Shown here one piece after another: positions 34,191 to 40,819 of a DNA stretch of 64,000 nt. The number at the start of each line of letters is the position of its first letter. Positions within the stretch are counted from its first letter, which is position 1. The stretch lies in the NCBI RefSeq assembly GCF_054482595.1, contig NZ_CM137008.1. One strand, written 5' to 3'. Made by a program: the position numbers and the translations under genes. The notes beneath the pieces are model-generated. The model saw only the letters and a program-made list of their open reading frames with translations. It ran no database searches and was not told the DNA's origin.

Positions 34191-37100
34191 TTAGAACGTT
34201 TTCTTAAAGTTCAGCATCACGCCTTTGTCGCTGATGCCGTCCTCTTTCCAGTGATACGCATCCAGATTCAGCGAACTTTCTTTGCTACTGTACTTCACGC
34301 CGACGCTCGCCAGGCTGTTGATACCGCCGCCCTTCTGACCGTCATCGACGTTAAAGTGCTGGCTGCCTGCCCCTGCAAGGCTTGCCGTGCGCTGGCTCTT
34401 GCTGTAGCTCAGGTTCGGCCCGCCTTCCAGCGTCGCATTCGCGCTCCAGCCGCCTTTCCCTGCGTAGTCCAGTTTCAGCCCGACGATGCTGTCCACCGCC
34501 GTTTCGCTGCCACTGTTCATATTCAGGTTAAAGTCTCCGGCATTGCGCTCCTGATAGCCACCTTCCAGTGTGTGACGCAGTTTTACACCCGCATATGGCG
34601 TAACCTTCAGTCCTTCGCTCGGTTCGAAAGTCTTCGCCACTTCGCTGCGGAACTCCAGGTACTGCTGCTTCACGTCGGTATCAGCCGTTTTGTTTGTGTT
34701 GCTAAATGCAATCGAACGGCTACTGTCAAGGTTGTGAACGTCATAACGCAATGCGTTATTCCAGTTCATGCCGTTGTCGAAGGACATCTGGTGCTTCAGG
34801 CCAAAGAACTGGCTATAACCACCTGTGACGCCATTATCACCCGCTTTCTGCGCACCATCACCATCGAGACGAGCGATACCGTACTCCAGACTCATCGTCT
34901 GGCTTTCGCTCAGGTCGATGGTTTTACGCAATGCCAGCATGTCGTATTCGGTATTATTACCTAACTCGGCACGTGGATCGCCTTTCGCAACAACGTTGAA
35001 CGCCAGACCGTTACCCACCTTCGGCGCGGCATCCGCCAGCATGCTGAAGCGGTTGCTTAACACACGCGCTTCACGGAATACCGTGGTCGCCTGGCTACCG
35101 CTCACCTGCTTCAGGGCGCTATTCAGTTCAGCAGTGGTGCCCACGTTCAGGCTGGTATACAGCTCGTTATTGGTGTAACCCGCATCCAGTGCCTTCGCCA
35201 CATCGTTCACCGAAGCATCGGTCGCCACATCGGTGTAGGCGTTTTTGCTCATGATGACGTCAACGTTGCCGCTGGCATCGGTGCTGCCTTTGGCGGTCCA
35301 TACCACGGACGTTGAGGTGATGGCATCGGCGTCGGTCAGGTTGATGCCTTCCACCACGTTGTCGAAACTGACCGTGGTGTCTGCCGTACCGGCGGCGAAA
35401 CCGGTGTTGATCCCGACACCATTCATGCTGGCGTTGTTAACCTTCAGTTTACCGGCGCTGCCGTCAACGTTGGTACCGACGATATAGCCGTTGAGGTTGT
35501 TACTGCTGCCATCGCTACTACCGCTATCAGTCGTTTCACTGAAAGGTGAAGTGGTGTAAGTGTTTGGCATGTCCGGCAACGTGTAGTCGGTGTAATGCAC
35601 TTCGGTATTGTTACCGCTGTTGCCGTTCACCCCTTCCACATTCACGCTGTCGCCCTGCTTAATCAACCCCGAACCAGTCACGCCGTCGGCAATCACCACC
35701 GTACCGTTGTTAACGATATGACCTTCTGTGCCCAGTACGCTGAACGCAAACGAGTCGTTAGCAAAAATATTGATCGTGCCGTTGTTCTCAATTACCGCAT
35801 CGGCGGTGGCATTGGCATCCAGTTGCATACCAGTCAATCCGGTATCGGTGGTGCCTTCGGTGCCGAGATTGATAACGCCGTTGTTAACCAGTTGTGCGTT
35901 TTTATCACCTTCCATCGCCACGGCATTGTTGCCGCTGATGTTCATCACGCCATCGTTGAGGGCAACATAGTTGTTGTGGGTGAATTTAACTGCGCTGGCG
36001 TTGTCTTTATCGAAGTTAATCACCCCGCCATCCTGGTTCCACAGGAAGGCATCGCTTTCTGTCGCACCAGCGGTACTTACCGCCACAGTGACTTTCGCAT
36101 CCACCACGCCCTTGTTAATAAACTGGCTGGCGCCGTCGTCATAGTGAATAGCGCCCGCGCCAAGTGCGGCATCCAGCGTCATTTCACCGGTGTTATATAA
36201 CGTGGCGTTAGCATTGCTTCCCTGGAAGCGAATGGCGTTTTTACTGTTATCAAGGATGAGCTTGCCGCTGTTGTTGAACGTTGATTGGTCGTCAATATCC
36301 AGCGTCCCGGCATTGTTATTTTCATCCTGATAACCCATTTTCCAGGTCCCCGCGTTATTCACCACCGCAGAGTTATAGAGAATGGCACCTTTACGCGCCT
36401 CGCCGCCTGCAAGGTTATTGAATACAGCATCGCCCTGGGCGTTAACGCGCGCCGACGCGATACCGCTGTTATTCACCGTGCCATCGTTAAGCTGTAAGGT
36501 TGACAGTGAACCGGTATTATTAATTACCGCGTTGCTGTTTTTCTCAATTTTTACGACGTCATTAAGCGTTCCGTTGTTATTGAAGGTTCCTCCTTCCAGA
36601 GTCACCGTGTTCAATACACCTTCATTGGTTAACGCACCGCCTTCATTCACGACGATGGCTGAGCTAATGGTTCCGCTCGACTCGTTAACCAGCGCACCAT
36701 TTTCGAGTATCCTGATCGTTCCATTTTTAACAGCACCCGCACTGGTGACATCCCCGTTGATAATCGCACCTGACGATAATAATACGGTCTCACCCGCAGA
36801 ACTTAATACATCGCCATCATCATATAAATCGGCAATATAATTATCCGTTGGATTATATTCATCGGCCCCCTGGCAAACGCCAAAGGTACAAATTGTGCCA
36901 TAGTTGATAATAAGCCCAGTGCCATCGTTATAGAATGCCTGACCATTTTCCGCGTTAATGTTGATTACGCCTGTCTGGTCATTAATGGCGGTGCCTTCGT
37001 GATAAACCGCCATGCCGACGAGTTTATTCACACCGAGAGAATCGTTGTAATTTTCATTTTTCTCCAGGTTGATGGTTCCCTGGTTAATGACCGTATTAGT

Positions 37101-40085
37101 ATTCCCATACGCCGCCATCCCCGCACCGGCGTTGTAGACAGTAATCACACCATTCTCGTGGTTGGTTGCCGTGGCTTTAGTTAATGCCCCATTATAGGCA
37201 TCGGTACCTGAAGCCATTCCCACACCGAAATCTTTCGCCGTGCTATTTGCAACATTATTACGCAGCGATGTTTCATCATTTTCATCGACCCACAGCGTAT
37301 CCAGGGTGATTTGCCCTTCGTTATCCGCGGTTGATTTATCGATAGCCAACATCCCCACGCTGCCACGACCATACATCTCAATAATACCCGTTTCGCCGTT
37401 CAGAATGGATGACGAGTAGCTGGCAAGCATACCTGTCAGCCCTAATGCCTTGTTATTGAAAGAGGTACCATCAGACAAGTTCCACTCTGCCGGATAATTC
37501 AGCACACTGTGCTGATTCATCATTTTGGTGGTCATGGTACCATTGTTAACGCCAATCCCACCGTATTCAACGTCAAAGACTTTTGGTGCCGGGTCGGTAC
37601 CAAAATCGTACATCGCCAGGCCAATGGATCCGTTATTGATTACCGTTGAATCTTTATTCCAGGCAGCCGCAAAACCGATATTTTTCAGTTCCACTTCACC
37701 GTTGTTTGTCGCCTTCGCACCAGAATCAATACTAATGGTGGATAACGCTACACGATAATAATAAGTGAAAGAATCCACATCACTCATATCAAACGTTGCG
37801 TCAGCGCCAATCTCCAGCTCCGCGCCATGGCTCAACTGAATGAGATTTTCGAACCCCAGCGGGAACTCGCCGCTGATGGTTGACTCACCATTCAGGTAGA
37901 CCGAGGAATGCCCATCAACGTTAATAAGCGGTGTGTCTCCGATACCACGACGAGATGCGGCAGGTTTTGAGCCATCATCCATGACATTTTTTTCACCGAC
38001 AAAATGAACACCGCCATTAAGCGTAAAGGTATTGTCATCGCCAGCAATAACAATACCCGCAATGTGTTCCTGAGCACCGTCGTAACTCGCATAGGAACGC
38101 GACGTGGTTTCACTATCAGCAACAACGGTTAACTGACCATCCAGCGTGACGTCGTTGTTGTCACCGCTGATATTTACCCCGGTTGAGGGATTAAAGAAGT
38201 AAGGCTGCGCATTATCAGCTTTCTGATCTTTATCAACCAGAATACTGCCCGCTATTTCGATAGTATTACCATCACCCGAAACATTAACACCTGTCGCTTC
38301 TTGCCCTGTCACATTCAGCCCATAAGTCGACAGCGTCATGTTGTTATTATCACCAGAGACATCAAGACCGGTGGAGAAATCCCCAACGTCTAACCCGCCC
38401 GCAAGTGAAATATTGGCTTTATCGCCTGCAACGCTGATACCGGTTCCGGCGTTGGTCGCGGTAATATCACCAACGTTAACAAATGTCGCATTATTACCGT
38501 CGATCTGAATGCCGATTGCATTTTCACCTGTAGCGGCCTGACCAACATTGAGGTCACCCATGTTGATCACGCTGACACCATCACCATCAAGCAGCATGCC
38601 GATAGAGTTTTCCTCGACGACCGTAATATTACCTTTGTTGCTGACGAACGTGTTGTTGCCGACAACGTCAATACCGTGCGCACCGCCGCTAACGTATAAG
38701 TCGCCTTCCTGTTTGATGATGGCATCGTCACCGACAACTTTCGAGCCAGTGGAATTCGCACCGTCAACGGTCATAGTACCTTTATTATCAACCCGCGCAT
38801 TATCGCCATTGATAAGGCTACCCGTACCGCCATTGGTGATGGTCGAGTCGCCCGCAGTGTTTAGCTTGGTATTATCGCCATTGATGATTACCGCGGTACC
38901 GCCATCAACTTCCGTCTCGCCATTATTGTTAATGGTGATATTGTCGCCGGTGAGTATACCGACAACCGAGCCTTCTCCGATGGCCGTCGTTTTGCCGTCG
39001 TTGTTGAGGGTGATGTTGTCACCATCAACCGTCATGACAGTACCGCCATTCAGCGCCGTGTTGCCGCCCTGATCGGTGATGATCGCGTTACCAAACTCAA
39101 TCGCATTCCCGGTTGTGCCGTCAACAACGACGCCGGCCTCTTTAGTGATGTGGATGAGTCCATCATCGTCGTAACTCCAGGTGATGCCACCTGAGGTATT
39201 TACGCCATCAAAGACAACGGTGTTGCTGTCGTCATGGACTGTCCAGGACTTAACTATCGTCTCCTTGCCCTCAGGCGCCGTTAAGGTGTAGCTCCCATCG
39301 GCATTTTGGCTGTAGGTAAAGGTGGTTTCGCGAATTTTGACGGTTTTCGCGTCCTGATCCCAGGTTACGTCATTTTTATAGACGACAGGATCGTGTTTAA
39401 CCGGGGTATCGCCACCATCGTCTGGCGGAACAGGCGTATCACCGCCGTCGTCTGGAACTGGCGTATCACCGCCATCATCTGGTGGAACCGGCGTATCACC
39501 GCCGTCATCTGGTGGAACCGGCATATCACCGCCGTCATCTGGCGGAACTGGCGTATCACCGCCGTCATCTGGCGGAACTGGCGTATCACCGCCGTCATCT
39601 GGCGGAACCGGCGTATCATCGCCGTCATCTGGCGGAACTGGCGTATCACCGCCGTCATCTGGCGGAACTGGCGTATCACCGCCGTCATCTGGCGGAACCG
39701 GCGTATCACCGCCGTCATCTGGCGGAACCGGCGTATCACCGCCGTCGTCTGGCGGAACAGGCGTATCACCGCCATCATCCGGAACTGGGGAGTTATTATG
39801 GTGGTGATTGTCATCGTCACTTAAGGTATATATAGCAATTCCCGTAGCTACTGCAGCAAGACCTGCAGCTGCCCATGGTAAAACTGCACTATCTTTATTT
39901 TCTCTGCACTCCGCGGATAAATTTTCTAGCTGCTCTTTGCTCAGGGAATGAATATTTGCCGGACATGTTATCTTACTGGACTTACGTGTTTTTTCGGTTG
40001 AGTCGGGTATTGAAGTATCCGCAGCCCATGTCTGGCTACTTAACGCCATGGCAACACAAACAGACAATAATTTTTTCCTTTGCAT
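34191..40085 (-). CDS. ydbA: Giant autotransporter (type Va) YdbA, uninterrupted: signal peptide, Pro/Asp/Gly-rich decapeptide repeat stalk, beta-helical passenger, C-terminal beta-barrel ending in Phe
   Basis: Track ORF 34191..40124 trimmed to MQRKKLLSVCVAMALSSQTWA (SD AAGGA 8 nt upstream); passenger full of GxNxT/GDNxxV beta-helix repeats; terminal ...VMLNFKKTF. Confidence 0.85.
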   Translation of the reverse strand: MQRKKLLSVCVAMALSSQTWAADTSIPDSTEKTRKSSKITCPANIHSLSKEQLENLSAECRENKDSAVLPWAAAGLAAVATGIAIYTLSDDDNHHHNNSPVPDDGGDTPVPPDDGGDTPVPPDDGGDTPVPPDDGGDTPVPPDDGGDTPVPPDDGDDTPVPPDDGGDTPVPPDDGGDTPVPPDDGGDMPVPPDDGGDTPVPPDDGGDTPVPDDGGDTPVPPDDGGDTPVKHDPVVYKNDVTWDQDAKTVKIRETTFTYSQNADGSYTLTAPEGKETIVKSWTVHDDSNTVVFDGVNTSGGITWSYDDDGLIHITKEAGVVVDGTTGNAIEFGNAIITDQGGNTALNGGTVMTVDGDNITLNNDGKTTAIGEGSVVGILTGDNITINNNGETEVDGGTAVIINGDNTKLNTAGDSTITNGGTGSLINGDNARVDNKGTMTVDGANSTGSKVVGDDAIIKQEGDLYVSGGAHGIDVVGNNTFVSNKGNITVVEENSIGMLLDGDGVSVINMGDLNVGQAATGENAIGIQIDGNNATFVNVGDITATNAGTGISVAGDKANISLAGGLDVGDFSTGLDVSGDNNNMTLSTYGLNVTGQEATGVNVSGDGNTIEIAGSILVDKDQKADNAQPYFFNPSTGVNISGDNNDVTLDGQLTVVADSETTSRSYASYDGAQEHIAGIVIAGDDNTFTLNGGVHFVGEKNVMDDGSKPAASRRGIGDTPLINVDGHSSVYLNGESTISGEFPLGFENLIQLSHGAELEIGADATFDMSDVDSFTYYYRVALSTISIDSGAKATNNGEVELKNIGFAAAWNKDSTVINNGSIGLAMYDFGTDPAPKVFDVEYGGIGVNNGTMTTKMMNQHSVLNYPAEWNLSDGTSFNNKALGLTGMLASYSSSILNGETGIIEMYGRGSVGMLAIDKSTADNEGQITLDTLWVDENDETSLRNNVANSTAKDFGVGMASGTDAYNGALTKATATNHENGVITVYNAGAGMAAYGNTNTVINQGTINLEKNENYNDSLGVNKLVGMAVYHEGTAINDQTGVININAENGQAFYNDGTGLIINYGTICTFGVCQGADEYNPTDNYIADLYDDGDVLSSAGETVLLSSGAIINGDVTSAGAVKNGTIRILENGALVNESSGTISSAIVVNEGGALTNEGVLNTVTLEGGTFNNNGTLNDVVKIEKNSNAVINNTGSLSTLQLNDGTVNNSGIASARVNAQGDAVFNNLAGGEARKGAILYNSAVVNNAGTWKMGYQDENNNAGTLDIDDQSTFNNSGKLILDNSKNAIRFQGSNANATLYNTGEMTLDAALGAGAIHYDDGASQFINKGVVDAKVTVAVSTAGATESDAFLWNQDGGVINFDKDNASAVKFTHNNYVALNDGVMNISGNNAVAMEGDKNAQLVNNGVINLGTEGTTDTGLTGMQLDANATADAVIENNGTINIFANDSFAFSVLGTEGHIVNNGTVVIADGVTGSGLIKQGDSVNVEGVNGNSGNNTEVHYTDYTLPDMPNTYTTSPFSETTDSGSSDGSSNNLNGYIVGTNVDGSAGKLKVNNASMNGVGINTGFAAGTADTTVSFDNVVEGINLTDADAITSTSVVWTAKGSTDASGNVDVIMSKNAYTDVATDASVNDVAKALDAGYTNNELYTSLNVGTTAELNSALKQVSGSQATTVFREARVLSNRFSMLADAAPKVGNGLAFNVVAKGDPRAELGNNTEYDMLALRKTIDLSESQTMSLEYGIARLDGDGAQKAGDNGVTGGYSQFFGLKHQMSFDNGMNWNNALRYDVHNLDSSRSIAFSNTNKTADTDVKQQYLEFRSEVAKTFEPSEGLKVTPYAGVKLRHTLEGGYQERNAGDFNLNMNSGSETAVDSIVGLKLDYAGKGGWSANATLEGGPNLSYSKSQRTASLAGAGSQHFNVDDGQKGGGINSLASVGVKYSSKESSLNLDAYHWKEDGISDKGVMLNFKKTF
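39401..39790. repeat. Tandem array of about 13 units of a 30-bp repeat (one 27-bp unit) inside ydbA, encoding PPDDGGDTPV
   Basis: ggcggaacYggcgtatcaccgccgtcatct repeated head-to-tail in exact 30-nt register from 39481 to 39780 with degenerate flanking units. Confidence 0.9.
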
Positions 40086-40492
40086 ATAAAATTCCTTAGA
40101 TCTAGACCGTGCGTAACAAGCCATGCAGAATTTGAAGATAAATCGTAGTAAATATTCATAGTGAAATAAGCAATAAAGAAATGCTTATATAATTCACAAA
40201 ATCAATATTAAAATCAGGCAAGTAAAAGCATACAAAAAAACAGTTGATGGAATTATATTCCACAAAAAACTCACTTCAATCTAAAAATTAACGACAAAAA
40301 ACAAAAACACACTAATAATTCATTGACGCTGCATATATATTTTGTGATTACATATATATTGGTAATGATTTGTTATTTAAGGGAAGGATATATAAGGTTT
40401 TTGTAGAAATACCCACGGTAATTAAGCATGCTAACGTCAGTTTAAATACTGTAAAAGATCATTAATAGATACATTTTGTAGCCAACTATAAT

Positions 40493-40819
40493 TTATTTGC
40501 GCAACCATTTACCATTAACTCCCTGAACATATTGCCCCGACTTCGCGCGAGCAACAAGCTTTTGTCCAGCCAGTTTGGCTATCTCTTTAGTGGATACATT
40601 ATTTTGCTTTGCCAGTTGTTGGTAACTATGGTTACGAGCTTCATTAATATCTTTTACTAATGCCTGTGTTTCGGCATCCGTTTGTAGCGCCACCAGGTAA
40701 CCGTTAAGCGTTTCACCTACCCGCCCCTGACTTCTGGCTTCGTTCAGGGTTAAAGCCATTGCACTGTCGCTCATCAGGCCAATGGCCCATACAGCTATGA
40801 GTAATGTTCTTTTCATCAT
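40493..40819 (-). CDS. ydbL: DUF1318-family periplasmic protein YdbL
   Basis: Track ORF trimmed to MMKRTLLIAVWAIGLMSDSAMA... (108 aa). Confidence 0.8.
   Translation of the reverse strand: MMKRTLLIAVWAIGLMSDSAMALTLNEARSQGRVGETLNGYLVALQTDAETQALVKDINEARNHSYQQLAKQNNVSTKEIAKLAGQKLVARAKSGQYVQGVNGKWLRK

What the first reader, a model, noticed from the sequence alone, without database searches (positions are those of the whole stretch)
39401..39790. 30-bp in-frame tandem repeat array (about 13 units) encoding PPDDGGDTPV in ydbA
The head-to-tail array is nearly perfect and in register, so it is a likely substrate for slipped-strand mispairing or recombination. Copy-number changes would alter the length of a proline-rich stalk near the N-terminus of the passenger domain without breaking the frame. 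It also generates three artefactual overlapping ORFs in the track.
Basis: seen in the sequence. Interest (0 to 1): 0.45.

Follow-up and report, generated by a model that had tools for sequence, protein, structure and literature searches.

The report
Variable 30-bp coding repeat in ydbA
A run of 13 head-to-tail 30-base repeats inside an intact E. coli surface-protein (autotransporter) gene is real. It changes copy number between strains without breaking the reading frame, which is an ordinary kind of variable repeat, though this one is not described in the papers searched.

Summary
Window 39399-39782 (gene on the minus strand) holds 13 tandem units, 11 of 30 bp (PPDDGGDTPV) and 2 of 27 bp (PDDGGDTPV), all in frame. 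They encode residues 102-229 of an intact 1964-aa YdbA/BigA-family type Va autotransporter at the ydbA position.

Copy number differs among complete E. coli genomes. The window's allele class has 2, 4-13 and 15 units. Two more divergent allele classes have 8-12.

The mechanism is visible in two pairs of alleles:
- Strain Santai lacks exactly 90 bp, and its junction unit is a hybrid of two marked window units.
- Another pair differs by one 120-bp four-unit block.

The O157:H7/O55:H7 lineage shares a nonsense codon in the gene yet shows 2-9 units, so the array is mutationally unstable without selection.

The unit's peptide is under purifying selection. All 10 fixed differences between allele-class consensus units are synonymous.

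Every family representative inspected that retains its N-terminus has an acidic Pro/Gly-rich stretch at this position, mostly tandem repeats of differing unit length. E. albertii has 3-16 copies of a 27-bp unit.

The region is predicted to be non-globular. It sits at the distal N-terminal end of the passenger, so "tether" fits better than "stalk". This is a new member of a known kind, of modest interest.

The parts
39399..39782 (-). In-frame tandem array of 13 units (11 x 30 bp PPDDGGDTPV, 2 x 27 bp PDDGGDTPV). It encodes aa 102-229 in PGAP numbering: 128 aa, 37 Pro, 40 Asp, 25 Gly, net charge -40.
34191..40085 (-). Intact YdbA/BigA-family autotransporter CDS of 1964 aa. The open frame extends to an upstream ATG at 40124. 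The sequence is identical to WP_065311097.1 of E. coli XH990.
40023..40085 (-). Signal-peptide-like N-terminus MQRKKLLSVCVAMALSSQTWA. This was read from the sequence; no predictor was run.
39906..39965 (-). Conserved C-x18-C segment (C41...C60). C41, P42, L56 and C60 are invariant in 24 family N-termini.
39822..39884 (-). Ala/Gly-rich hydrophobic segment VLPWAAAGLAAVATGIAIYTL (aa 68-88). It is a conserved feature of the family and its role is unknown.
39783..39821 (-). Asp/His/Asn-rich run SDDDNHHHNNSPV (aa 89-101) just before the array.
39144..39386 (-). BigA_N beta-barrel domain (Pfam PF25784, E = 1e-32). The AF2 model has pLDDT above 90 here. It begins 5 residues after the array.
35238..35489 (-). 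BigA_beta sandwich domain (Pfam PF25783, E = 1e-24).
34281..34877 (-). C-terminal autotransporter beta-domain (Pfam PF03797, E = 4e-19, above the gathering score).
39306..39835 (.). Span of three spurious ORFs (39306-39824 +, 39365-39820 -, 39482-39835 +) created by the stop-free periodic sequence.

Best explanation
The array is an in-frame coding minisatellite (variable-number tandem repeat) in an intact YdbA/BigA-family type Va autotransporter gene.

Shown: units are gained and lost in steps of 30, 57 (27+30), 90 and 120 bp by misalignment between repeat copies, either replication slippage or unequal recombination. The first and last units stay as fixed anchors, and the frame is never broken.

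Shown: the repeat peptide PPDDGGDTPV is kept by purifying selection, while synonymous sites are homogenised within each allele class (concerted evolution).

Inferred: the encoded 128-residue segment is very acidic, is 29% proline, and forms an extended, non-globular tether. The tether joins a small conserved N-terminal module (a C-x18-C segment, a hydrophobic Gly/Ala segment and a His run) to the BigA_N barrel at the membrane-distal end of the passenger.

Inferred: copy-number change only lengthens or shortens this tether, and its length is loosely constrained. The locus therefore acts as a length-polymorphic linker, not as an on/off switch.
For: - Array anatomy.
- Copy number: among 16 fetched loci, 2, 4, 5, 6, 7, 8, 9, 12, 13 and 15 units in the window's allele class, and 8-12 in two divergent classes. 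Flank-to-flank spans in 95 listed genomes are consistent with these counts and add 10 and 11.
- Direct events: the window/XH990 unit map is abcddeddfghij and Santai's is abcddkghij. Unit k combines the G-to-D change of unit e with the T-to-M change of unit f, which marks a 90-bp deletion junction. EC1515 (abdldmccdmcchij) and Z1322HEC0005 (abdldmcchij) differ by one dmcc block. The rest of the gene is 99.88% identical in both pairs.
- Homology for misalignment: exact runs of 55 bp at shift 30 and 89 bp at shift 90.
- Instability without selection: all seven O157:H7/O55:H7 alleles share one TAG nonsense codon yet carry 2-9 units.
- Selection on the peptide: class consensus units differ at 4-8 of 30 nt, all at third codon positions and all synonymous. 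That is 10 of 10 inferred changes, where about 27% would be synonymous by chance (my calculation).
- Family-wide feature: almost all representatives with an intact N-terminus carry acidic tandem repeats at this position (period 3-14 aa, up to 16 copies), and the few others have a short acidic Gly/Asp-rich stretch.
- E. albertii: intact proteins measure 1769 + 9n aa, with n = 3-16.
- Structure: AF2 gives no secondary structure and pLDDT 50-60 across the array, next to a confident BigA_N barrel.
- Autotransporter identity.
Against: - No experiment or expression data shows that the protein is made or displayed.
- The rate of change is not measured, and the array can be stable. 14 of 15 genomes with identical flanks all have 13 units.
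- Strong conservation of the exact peptide is more than a pure spacer needs, so a sequence-specific role (metal binding, modification or a partner) may be missed.
- The role and location of the hydrophobic segment upstream are unknown, so the 'tether at the distal end' picture rests on general type Va topology.
- AF2 low confidence is weak evidence of disorder, since the alignment had only 24 sequences.
- Slippage and RecA-dependent unequal exchange cannot be told apart from sequence.
Confidence: 0.8

Rival explanations
1. The length variation is adaptive. Diversifying selection from the host immune response or from surface architecture (O-antigen or capsule depth) favours different tether lengths, as proposed for polymorphic Pro-rich repeat regions of other surface proteins such as Bordetella pertactin.
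For: - The array is at the exposed distal end of a putative adhesin.
- Intact alleles in E. coli and E. albertii cover a wide range, 8-15 and 3-16 units.
- The region is repetitive across the family but with different units.
- The peptide is under selection.
Against: - The truncated O157:H7/O55:H7 alleles vary just as much, 2-9 units, so mutation alone explains the spread.
- No association with serotype, host or phylogroup was tested.
- Immunogenicity is unknown.
Confidence: 0.2
2. The array is a spacer for an anchor. The hydrophobic segment just upstream stays embedded in a membrane, and the Pro-rich array spans a defined distance, as the TonB Pro-rich region spans the periplasm. Copy number would then set a physical reach.
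For: - The order hydrophobic segment, then charged run, then Pro-rich repeats is conserved in all full-length representatives.
- The segment's mean hydropathy is 1.7-2.1 over 18 residues.
Against: - A cleavable-type signal peptide precedes the segment, so a true stop-transfer would leave the passenger in the cytoplasm (an inference from Sec topology).
- The segment is Ala/Gly-rich and only marginally hydrophobic.
- Intact E. albertii proteins have as few as 3 units (27 aa) and as many as 16, so no fixed reach is kept.
- AF2 predicts no helix there.
Confidence: 0.08
3. The array is a phase-variation (contingency) locus. Repeat changes would switch expression of the autotransporter on and off.
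For: Repeat-mediated switching is common in surface-protein genes (general knowledge).
Against: - Both unit lengths (27 and 30 bp) are multiples of three.
- All 18 alleles read stay in frame through the array. The only premature stop seen lies about 2.5 kb downstream and is unrelated to the repeats.
Confidence: 0.01
4. The copy-number differences are assembly artefacts of a repeat that short reads cannot span.
For: A 384-bp array is longer than most short reads.
Against: - All records are complete genomes.
- Differences are exact multiples of units.
- Related strains agree with each other: 14 of 15 genomes with identical flanks have 13 units, 7 of 8 in the next group have 15, and groups of O157 strains share values.
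- The junction unit in Santai is a clean hybrid.
- E. albertii protein lengths fit 1769 + 9n exactly.
Confidence: 0.03

Closest known systems
E. coli K-12 YdbA (b4492 pseudogene) and Salmonella BigA; Pfam BigA_N PF25784 and BigA_beta PF25783; NCBIfam NF033178
   Same: - Same chromosomal position next to pdxI/ydbC and ydbD.
- Same Pfam domains and a C-terminal autotransporter barrel.
- Same N-terminal order: signal peptide, C-x18-C, hydrophobic segment, His/Asp run, Pro/Asp-rich stretch, BigA_N.
   Different: - K-12 ydbA is broken by IS2 and IS30. Its Pro-rich stretch is short and degenerate with no 30-bp array, and it has a 294-bp x 3.2 repeat in the passenger instead.
- The NCBIfam BigA model scores 1084 bits, below its cut-off of 3400, so this protein is a relative of BigA and not BigA itself.
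Polymorphic Pro-rich repeat regions of Bordetella pertactin (regions 1 and 2); comparison from my own knowledge, not tested here
   Same: Both are in-frame short Pro-rich repeats inside the passenger of a classical autotransporter, with copy number differing between strains.
   Different: - There is no detectable sequence relationship. The search of solved structures, which should include pertactin, found nothing at E <= 0.01.
- Pertactin's repeats are loops on the beta-helix. Here the array is a long N-terminal linker of up to about 150 residues.
- The antigenic role is unknown here.
Variable-number tandem repeat loci used for MLVA typing of E. coli O157:H7 (for example Vhec1)
   Same: It is a tandem repeat whose copy number differs among closely related O157:H7 strains, 2-9 units.
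   Different: - It is not Vhec1, which has 21-45 short repeats.
- The papers opened on the Vhec/O157 and CVN MLVA schemes did not describe it, and no scheme's locus list was read. No paper in the library holds the repeat peptide, and the two that combine 'ydbA' with 'tandem repeat' were not about this locus by title and abstract.
- The unit is long (30 bp) and coding.
Ser-Asp repeat 'stalk' regions of staphylococcal Clf/Sdr adhesins and the TonB Pro-rich spacer (functional analogies, from my own knowledge)
   Same: All are low-complexity, extended, charged repeat regions of variable length that act as spacers between functional modules.
   Different: - Those spacers sit between the anchor and the functional domain. 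Here the array is at the end of the passenger farthest from the beta-barrel anchor.
- No fixed minimal length is evident.
- There is no homology.
Simple-sequence contingency loci of Neisseria and Haemophilus
   Same: Repeat misalignment generates heritable, reversible variants of a surface protein gene.
   Different: The unit length is a multiple of three, so changes alter length and not frame or expression state.

Membership tests
Coding variable-number tandem repeat (in-frame minisatellite) | Head-to-tail copies of one unit, far beyond chance | tested here: met
   TRF gives period 30, 12.8 copies and score 601. There are 10 consecutive matches at 3 or fewer mismatches against 0 in shuffles.
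Coding variable-number tandem repeat (in-frame minisatellite) | Unit length a multiple of 3, within an open reading frame | tested here: met
   Units are 30 and 27 bp, and they encode aa 102-229 of an open 1964-aa frame.
Coding variable-number tandem repeat (in-frame minisatellite) | Copy number differs between strains with conserved flanks | tested here: met
   2-15 units were counted in fetched loci. Flank-to-flank spans in 95 listed genomes are consistent with this.
Coding variable-number tandem repeat (in-frame minisatellite) | Signature of misalignment events (hybrid junction units, block gain or loss) | tested here: met
   Santai unit k is an e/f hybrid after a 90-bp loss. EC1515 and Z1322HEC0005 differ by a dmcc block. 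O157 alleles differ by 57-bp blocks.
Type Va (classical) autotransporter | C-terminal autotransporter beta-barrel domain | tested here: met
   PF03797 scores E = 4e-19 and 69.7 bits against a cut-off of 26, on the C-terminal 369 aa.
Type Va (classical) autotransporter | N-terminal Sec signal peptide | not tested
   MQRKKLLSVCVAMALSSQTWA looks like a signal peptide by eye. No predictor was available.
Type Va (classical) autotransporter | Surface display or secretion of the passenger | not testable with these tools
   This needs an experiment.
BigA/YdbA family | BigA_N and BigA_beta domains | tested here: met
   PF25784 at 1.1e-32 and PF25783 at 1e-24.
BigA/YdbA family | Reaches the NCBIfam 'autotransporter adhesin BigA' cut-off | tested here: not met
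   NF033178 scores 1083.7 bits against a cut-off of 3400. The protein is a relative, not BigA proper.
BigA/YdbA family | Positional orthology with K-12 ydbA | tested here: met
   The gene lies immediately next to pdxI(ydbC) and ydbD, as ydbA does in K-12. On its other side is ydbL, because the window's genome lacks the fea/tynA/paa block that separates ydbL from ydbA in K-12.
Phase-variable contingency locus | Repeat changes shift the reading frame or promoter spacing | tested here: not met
   All 18 alleles are in frame through the array, and the array is inside the CDS.
Pertactin-type polymorphic region | Sequence homology to pertactin, and an immunodominant epitope | tested here: not met
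   No solved-structure sequence matched at E <= 0.01. Immunodominance is not testable here.

The most novel reading that the evidence does not exclude
The array may be one instance of an uncharacterised, family-wide N-terminal device of BigA/YdbA autotransporters. The device consists of a disulfide-capable C-x18-C segment, a conserved Gly/Ala hydrophobic segment and a His cluster, held on a length-variable, sequence-conserved acidic polyproline-like tether. The exact-peptide conservation (10 of 10 synonymous changes) would then reflect a specific activity, for example divalent-metal binding or a second membrane or partner attachment point for the passenger tip. Copy number would tune the reach or valency of that activity.
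Probability: 0.12. Interest if true: 0.6.

Novelty: new member of a known kind. Interest (0 to 1): 0.3.

Why it matters
The practical value is modest.
- The array is a clean, long-unit coding repeat that separates closely related strains. The O157:H7/O55:H7 lineage alone shows 2-9 units, so it could serve as a typing or lineage marker.
- It is a place where short-read assemblies and gene callers will go wrong. The same gene is annotated as "proline-rich domain-containing", "beta strand repeat-containing" or "hypothetical" depending on copy number.

Biologically, the result shows that an acidic Pro/Gly-rich stretch, in most members a tandem repeat, is a general feature of the little-studied BigA/YdbA autotransporters. 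In E. coli the repeat's sequence is under selection, though its length seems not to be. It also points to an unexplained conserved N-terminal module.

Tried and rejected
- **Known MLVA locus?** Vhec1 was checked and rejected because it has 21-45 repeats. Searches for ydbA with autotransporter or tandem repeat, for ECs2006/2007, and for the repeat peptide found no description of this array.
- **Word-indexed protein search with the N-terminus.** It returned only 13 short fragments and was of little use for counting. Genome loci and the representative search were used instead.
- **Pfam on the repeat alone.** The only hit was a sub-threshold match to the Spt5 CTD nonapeptide repeat (22 bits against a cut-off of 25.4), which I judge compositional. 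The N-terminal module alone gave nothing.
- **Solved structures.** There was no sequence match. Foldseek of the AF2 model against PDB gave no match at E <= 0.001.
- **Hairpin-driven instability.** Single-stranded DNA folding of either strand of the array is not better than shuffles (z = -1.66 and -0.20), so simple misalignment is enough.
- **Do intact genes need at least 8 units to span a fixed distance?** I dropped this idea after finding intact E. albertii proteins with 3, 6 and 7 units.
- **Phase variation and assembly artefact.** Both were rejected, as set out under the rival explanations.
Full report
**1. The observation**

The window holds one strong tandem repeat. Tandem Repeats Finder places it at 39399-39779 with period 30, 12.8 copies, 91% matches and score 601. 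It is the only array scoring at least 60 in all 64 kb.

Reading the coding (minus) strand codon by codon gives 13 units:
- 11 units of 30 bp encoding PPDDGGDTPV, with two single-residue variants (PPDDGDDTPV and PPDDGGDMPV).
- 2 units of 27 bp encoding PDDGGDTPV, the 1st and the 12th.

The exact span is 39399-39782, 384 bp. The majority unit matches ten consecutive sites at 3 or fewer mismatches, while 100 shuffles gave none. Within the array, 20 of the 22 nucleotide differences from the majority unit are synonymous.

They translate into periodic peptides such as ...WRNRRITAVI..., so they are by-products of a stop-free periodic sequence.

**2. The gene**

The array lies in frame in the minus-strand ORF 34191-40124. 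The annotated start in the identical XH990 record is the Met at 40085, giving 1964 aa. The window is 100% identical to E. coli XH990 and several other strains over this region.

Domain evidence:
- Pfam finds BigA_N (E = 1e-32) five residues after the array, and BigA_beta (E = 1e-24).
- The C-terminal 369 aa match the autotransporter beta-domain PF03797 (E = 4e-19).
- NCBIfam's Salmonella BigA model matches at 1084 bits, below its cut-off of 3400. The protein is therefore a relative of BigA, not BigA itself.

The neighbours are ydbL/ynbE/ydbH on one side and pdxI(ydbC)/ydbD on the other. This is the K-12 ydbA position, except that the fea/tynA/paa block is absent. The name ydbA is justified by position and family.

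The K-12 allele itself is different. It is disrupted by IS2 and IS30. Its Pro-rich stretch is short and degenerate (SPLPPTPPDDESDDTPVPPTPGGDEIIPDDPDDTPTPPKP) and has no 30-bp array.

**3. Variation between strains**

A query made only of the two 200-bp flanks finds both flanks in 371 of 5426 complete E. coli genomes. The distance between the flanks differs among them. I fetched 18 loci and counted units.

| Allele class | Strain(s) | Units |
|---|---|---|
| Window's class, intact frame | XH990 | 13 |
| | A16 | 12 |
| | 4FM, EC1515, 100181 | 15 |
| | Z1322HEC0005 | 11 |
| | O157:H16 Santai | 10 |
| Window's class, O157:H7/O55:H7 | seven strains | 2, 4, 5, 6, 7, 8, 9 |
| Second, more divergent class | VE-T9; strain 222 | 12; 10 |
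| Third class | M7424; AHB30 | 8; 10 |

In an evenly spaced sample of 35 genomes with both flanks, the spans correspond to these counts:

| Units | 2 | 4 | 5 | 6 | 7 | 8 | 9 | 12 | 13 | 15 |
|---|---|---|---|---|---|---|---|---|---|---|
| Genomes | 5 | 3 | 2 | 1 | 15 | 1 | 3 | 2 | 2 | 1 |

Every allele stays in frame.

The array is not hypervariable on the shortest time scales. 14 of 15 genomes with identical flanks have 13 units, and 7 of 8 in the next group have 15.

**4. Mechanism**

The first unit and the last unit are the same in all alleles of the window's class. Only interior units change. Two pairs of nearly identical genes (99.88% identity outside the array) show single events.

- The window/XH990 array reads abcddeddfghij and Santai reads abcddkghij. 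Unit k carries the GGT-to-GAT change that marks unit e and the ACG-to-ATG change that marks unit f. It is the recombinant junction of a 90-bp deletion between e and f.
- EC1515 reads abdldmccdmcchij and Z1322HEC0005 reads abdldmcchij. They differ by the gain or loss of one 120-bp block, dmcc.

O157 alleles differ by one to three copies of a 57-bp (27+30) block. The array offers exact homology of 55 bp at a shift of one unit and 89 bp at a shift of three units. Single-stranded DNA folding is no better than shuffled controls, so hairpins need not be invoked.

These data show misalignment between copies. Whether it is replication slippage or RecA-dependent unequal exchange cannot be told from sequence.

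**5. Selection**

All seven O157:H7/O55:H7 alleles carry the same TAG nonsense codon (...TFGVC*GADEYNP). The homologous window codon, 1072, is Gln. These alleles are annotated as two genes. The 2-9 unit spread in that lineage therefore reflects mutation without selection on the protein.

The peptide itself is conserved. The consensus 30-bp units of the three allele classes differ at 4-8 positions. All are third codon positions and all are synonymous, and the consensus peptide is PPDDGGDTPV in each class. On a three-class tree this is 10 changes. With about 27% of single-base changes in this unit being synonymous, ten out of ten is very unlikely under neutrality (about 2e-6, my calculation).

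Within each class the units share their synonymous codon choices, which is concerted evolution. So the sequence is selected, but I see no constraint on length. In E. albertii, otherwise equal-length intact proteins measure 1769 + 9n aa, with n = 3, 6, 7, 12, 14, 15 or 16 copies of PPDDGGNVT.

**6. Family context**

An exhaustive HMMER search of 1.84 billion representatives with a natural two-unit N-terminus found only 65 proteins. Those that carry a source name are from Escherichia, Citrobacter, Enterobacter, Rahnella and Superficieibacter.

Every full-length representative has the same N-terminal order:
- a signal peptide;
- a C-x18-C segment, with C41, P42, L56 and C60 invariant;
- an Ala/Gly-rich hydrophobic segment (mean hydropathy 1.7-2.1);
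- a His/Asn/Asp/Gly run;
- an acidic stretch, in most members Pro/Asp tandem repeats of varying period (PVD, PDDGGNT, PPDDGGNVT, PIPPDDGGDT, PPDDGGDDNVI, TPTPPDDGGDI and others; 1.3-16 copies), and in a few a short Gly/Asp-rich stretch without clear repeats;
- the BigA_N barrel.

The window's array is thus one version of a family-wide variable linker.

**7. What the segment is likely to be**

The 128 residues comprise 37 Pro, 40 Asp and 25 Gly, with net charge -40. AF2 with a 24-sequence alignment gives no secondary structure and pLDDT 50-60 across the array. The adjacent BigA_N barrel has pLDDT above 90.

I infer an extended, flexible, acidic tether. In type Va autotransporters the passenger's C-terminus is attached to the barrel and the N-terminus is distal (established topology). 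The array therefore does not lift the passenger off the surface. Instead it connects the roughly 80-residue N-terminal module to the passenger tip, so "stalk" is a loose term for it.

**8. What remains unexplained**

- It is unclear why a second, TM-like hydrophobic segment follows a signal peptide in an autotransporter.
- It is unclear why the exact repeat peptide is conserved so strongly if it were only a spacer.
- A membrane-anchor-plus-spacer reading is not excluded, but the 3-16 unit range in intact E. albertii proteins and Sec topology both argue against it.

**9. Comparison and novelty**

The kind of element is well known: an in-frame repeat polymorphism in a surface protein. Pertactin is the closest autotransporter analogy, from my own knowledge. 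It is not a contingency (frame-shifting) locus, and it is not the MLVA locus Vhec1. I found no paper in the library describing it, and no solved-structure relatives.

I rate it a new member of a known kind, with modest interest. Its uses are as a typing marker and as an annotation caveat. It also points to the uncharacterised N-terminal module of BigA/YdbA proteins.

Noticed in passing
window 39822-39965 (aa 41-88 of the CDS): A C-x18-C segment followed by an Ala/Gly-rich, TM-like hydrophobic segment lies downstream of the signal peptide. It is conserved in every full-length BigA/YdbA representative. This is odd for a type Va autotransporter and remains unexplained. AF2 gives it low confidence.
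   Followed up: partly
window 36870-36872 (codon 1072); loci L002, L004-L009: All seven O157:H7/O55:H7 alleles fetched have TAG at this Gln codon. The gene is therefore truncated in that lineage and annotated as two CDS (Sakai ECs_2006 'BigA-like' and ECs_2007 'BigB-like').
   Followed up: yes
window about 40125-40500, compared with L017 (K-12 1462000-1478000): The fea/tynA/paa gene block that separates ydbL from ydbA in K-12 is absent here, so ydbA directly follows ydbL.
   Followed up: partly
L017 4053-5006 (K-12 ydbA): K-12 ydbA carries a 294-bp x 3.2 tandem repeat inside the passenger. The window's allele has nothing like it, and K-12 lacks the 30-bp array.
   Followed up: partly
proteins P0014, P0077-P0090 (Escherichia albertii): The E. 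albertii orthologue has a 27-bp (PPDDGGNVT) array at the same position. It has 3-16 copies, and protein length is exactly 1769 + 9n aa.
   Followed up: yes
window 40000-40400: The upstream region of the gene is only about 30% G+C. It contains a sigma70-like site (TTGAAG, 16-nt spacer, TATAAT) at 40279-40252 on the minus strand. This would be compatible with a silenced, horizontally variable locus, but that was not tested.
   Followed up: no
window 34191-40124 (protein scans): The Pfam scan of the full-length ORF did not list the autotransporter beta-domain, although the C-terminal 369 aa alone hit PF03797 at 4e-19. This is a caution for automated domain calls on long repetitive proteins.
   Followed up: partly
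L018 4174-7296 (E. coli O157:H16 Santai): PGAP flags this allele as 'incomplete, missing C-terminus'. However, from the same start it translates as an open 1934-aa frame, which is 1964 minus 30.
   Followed up: partly
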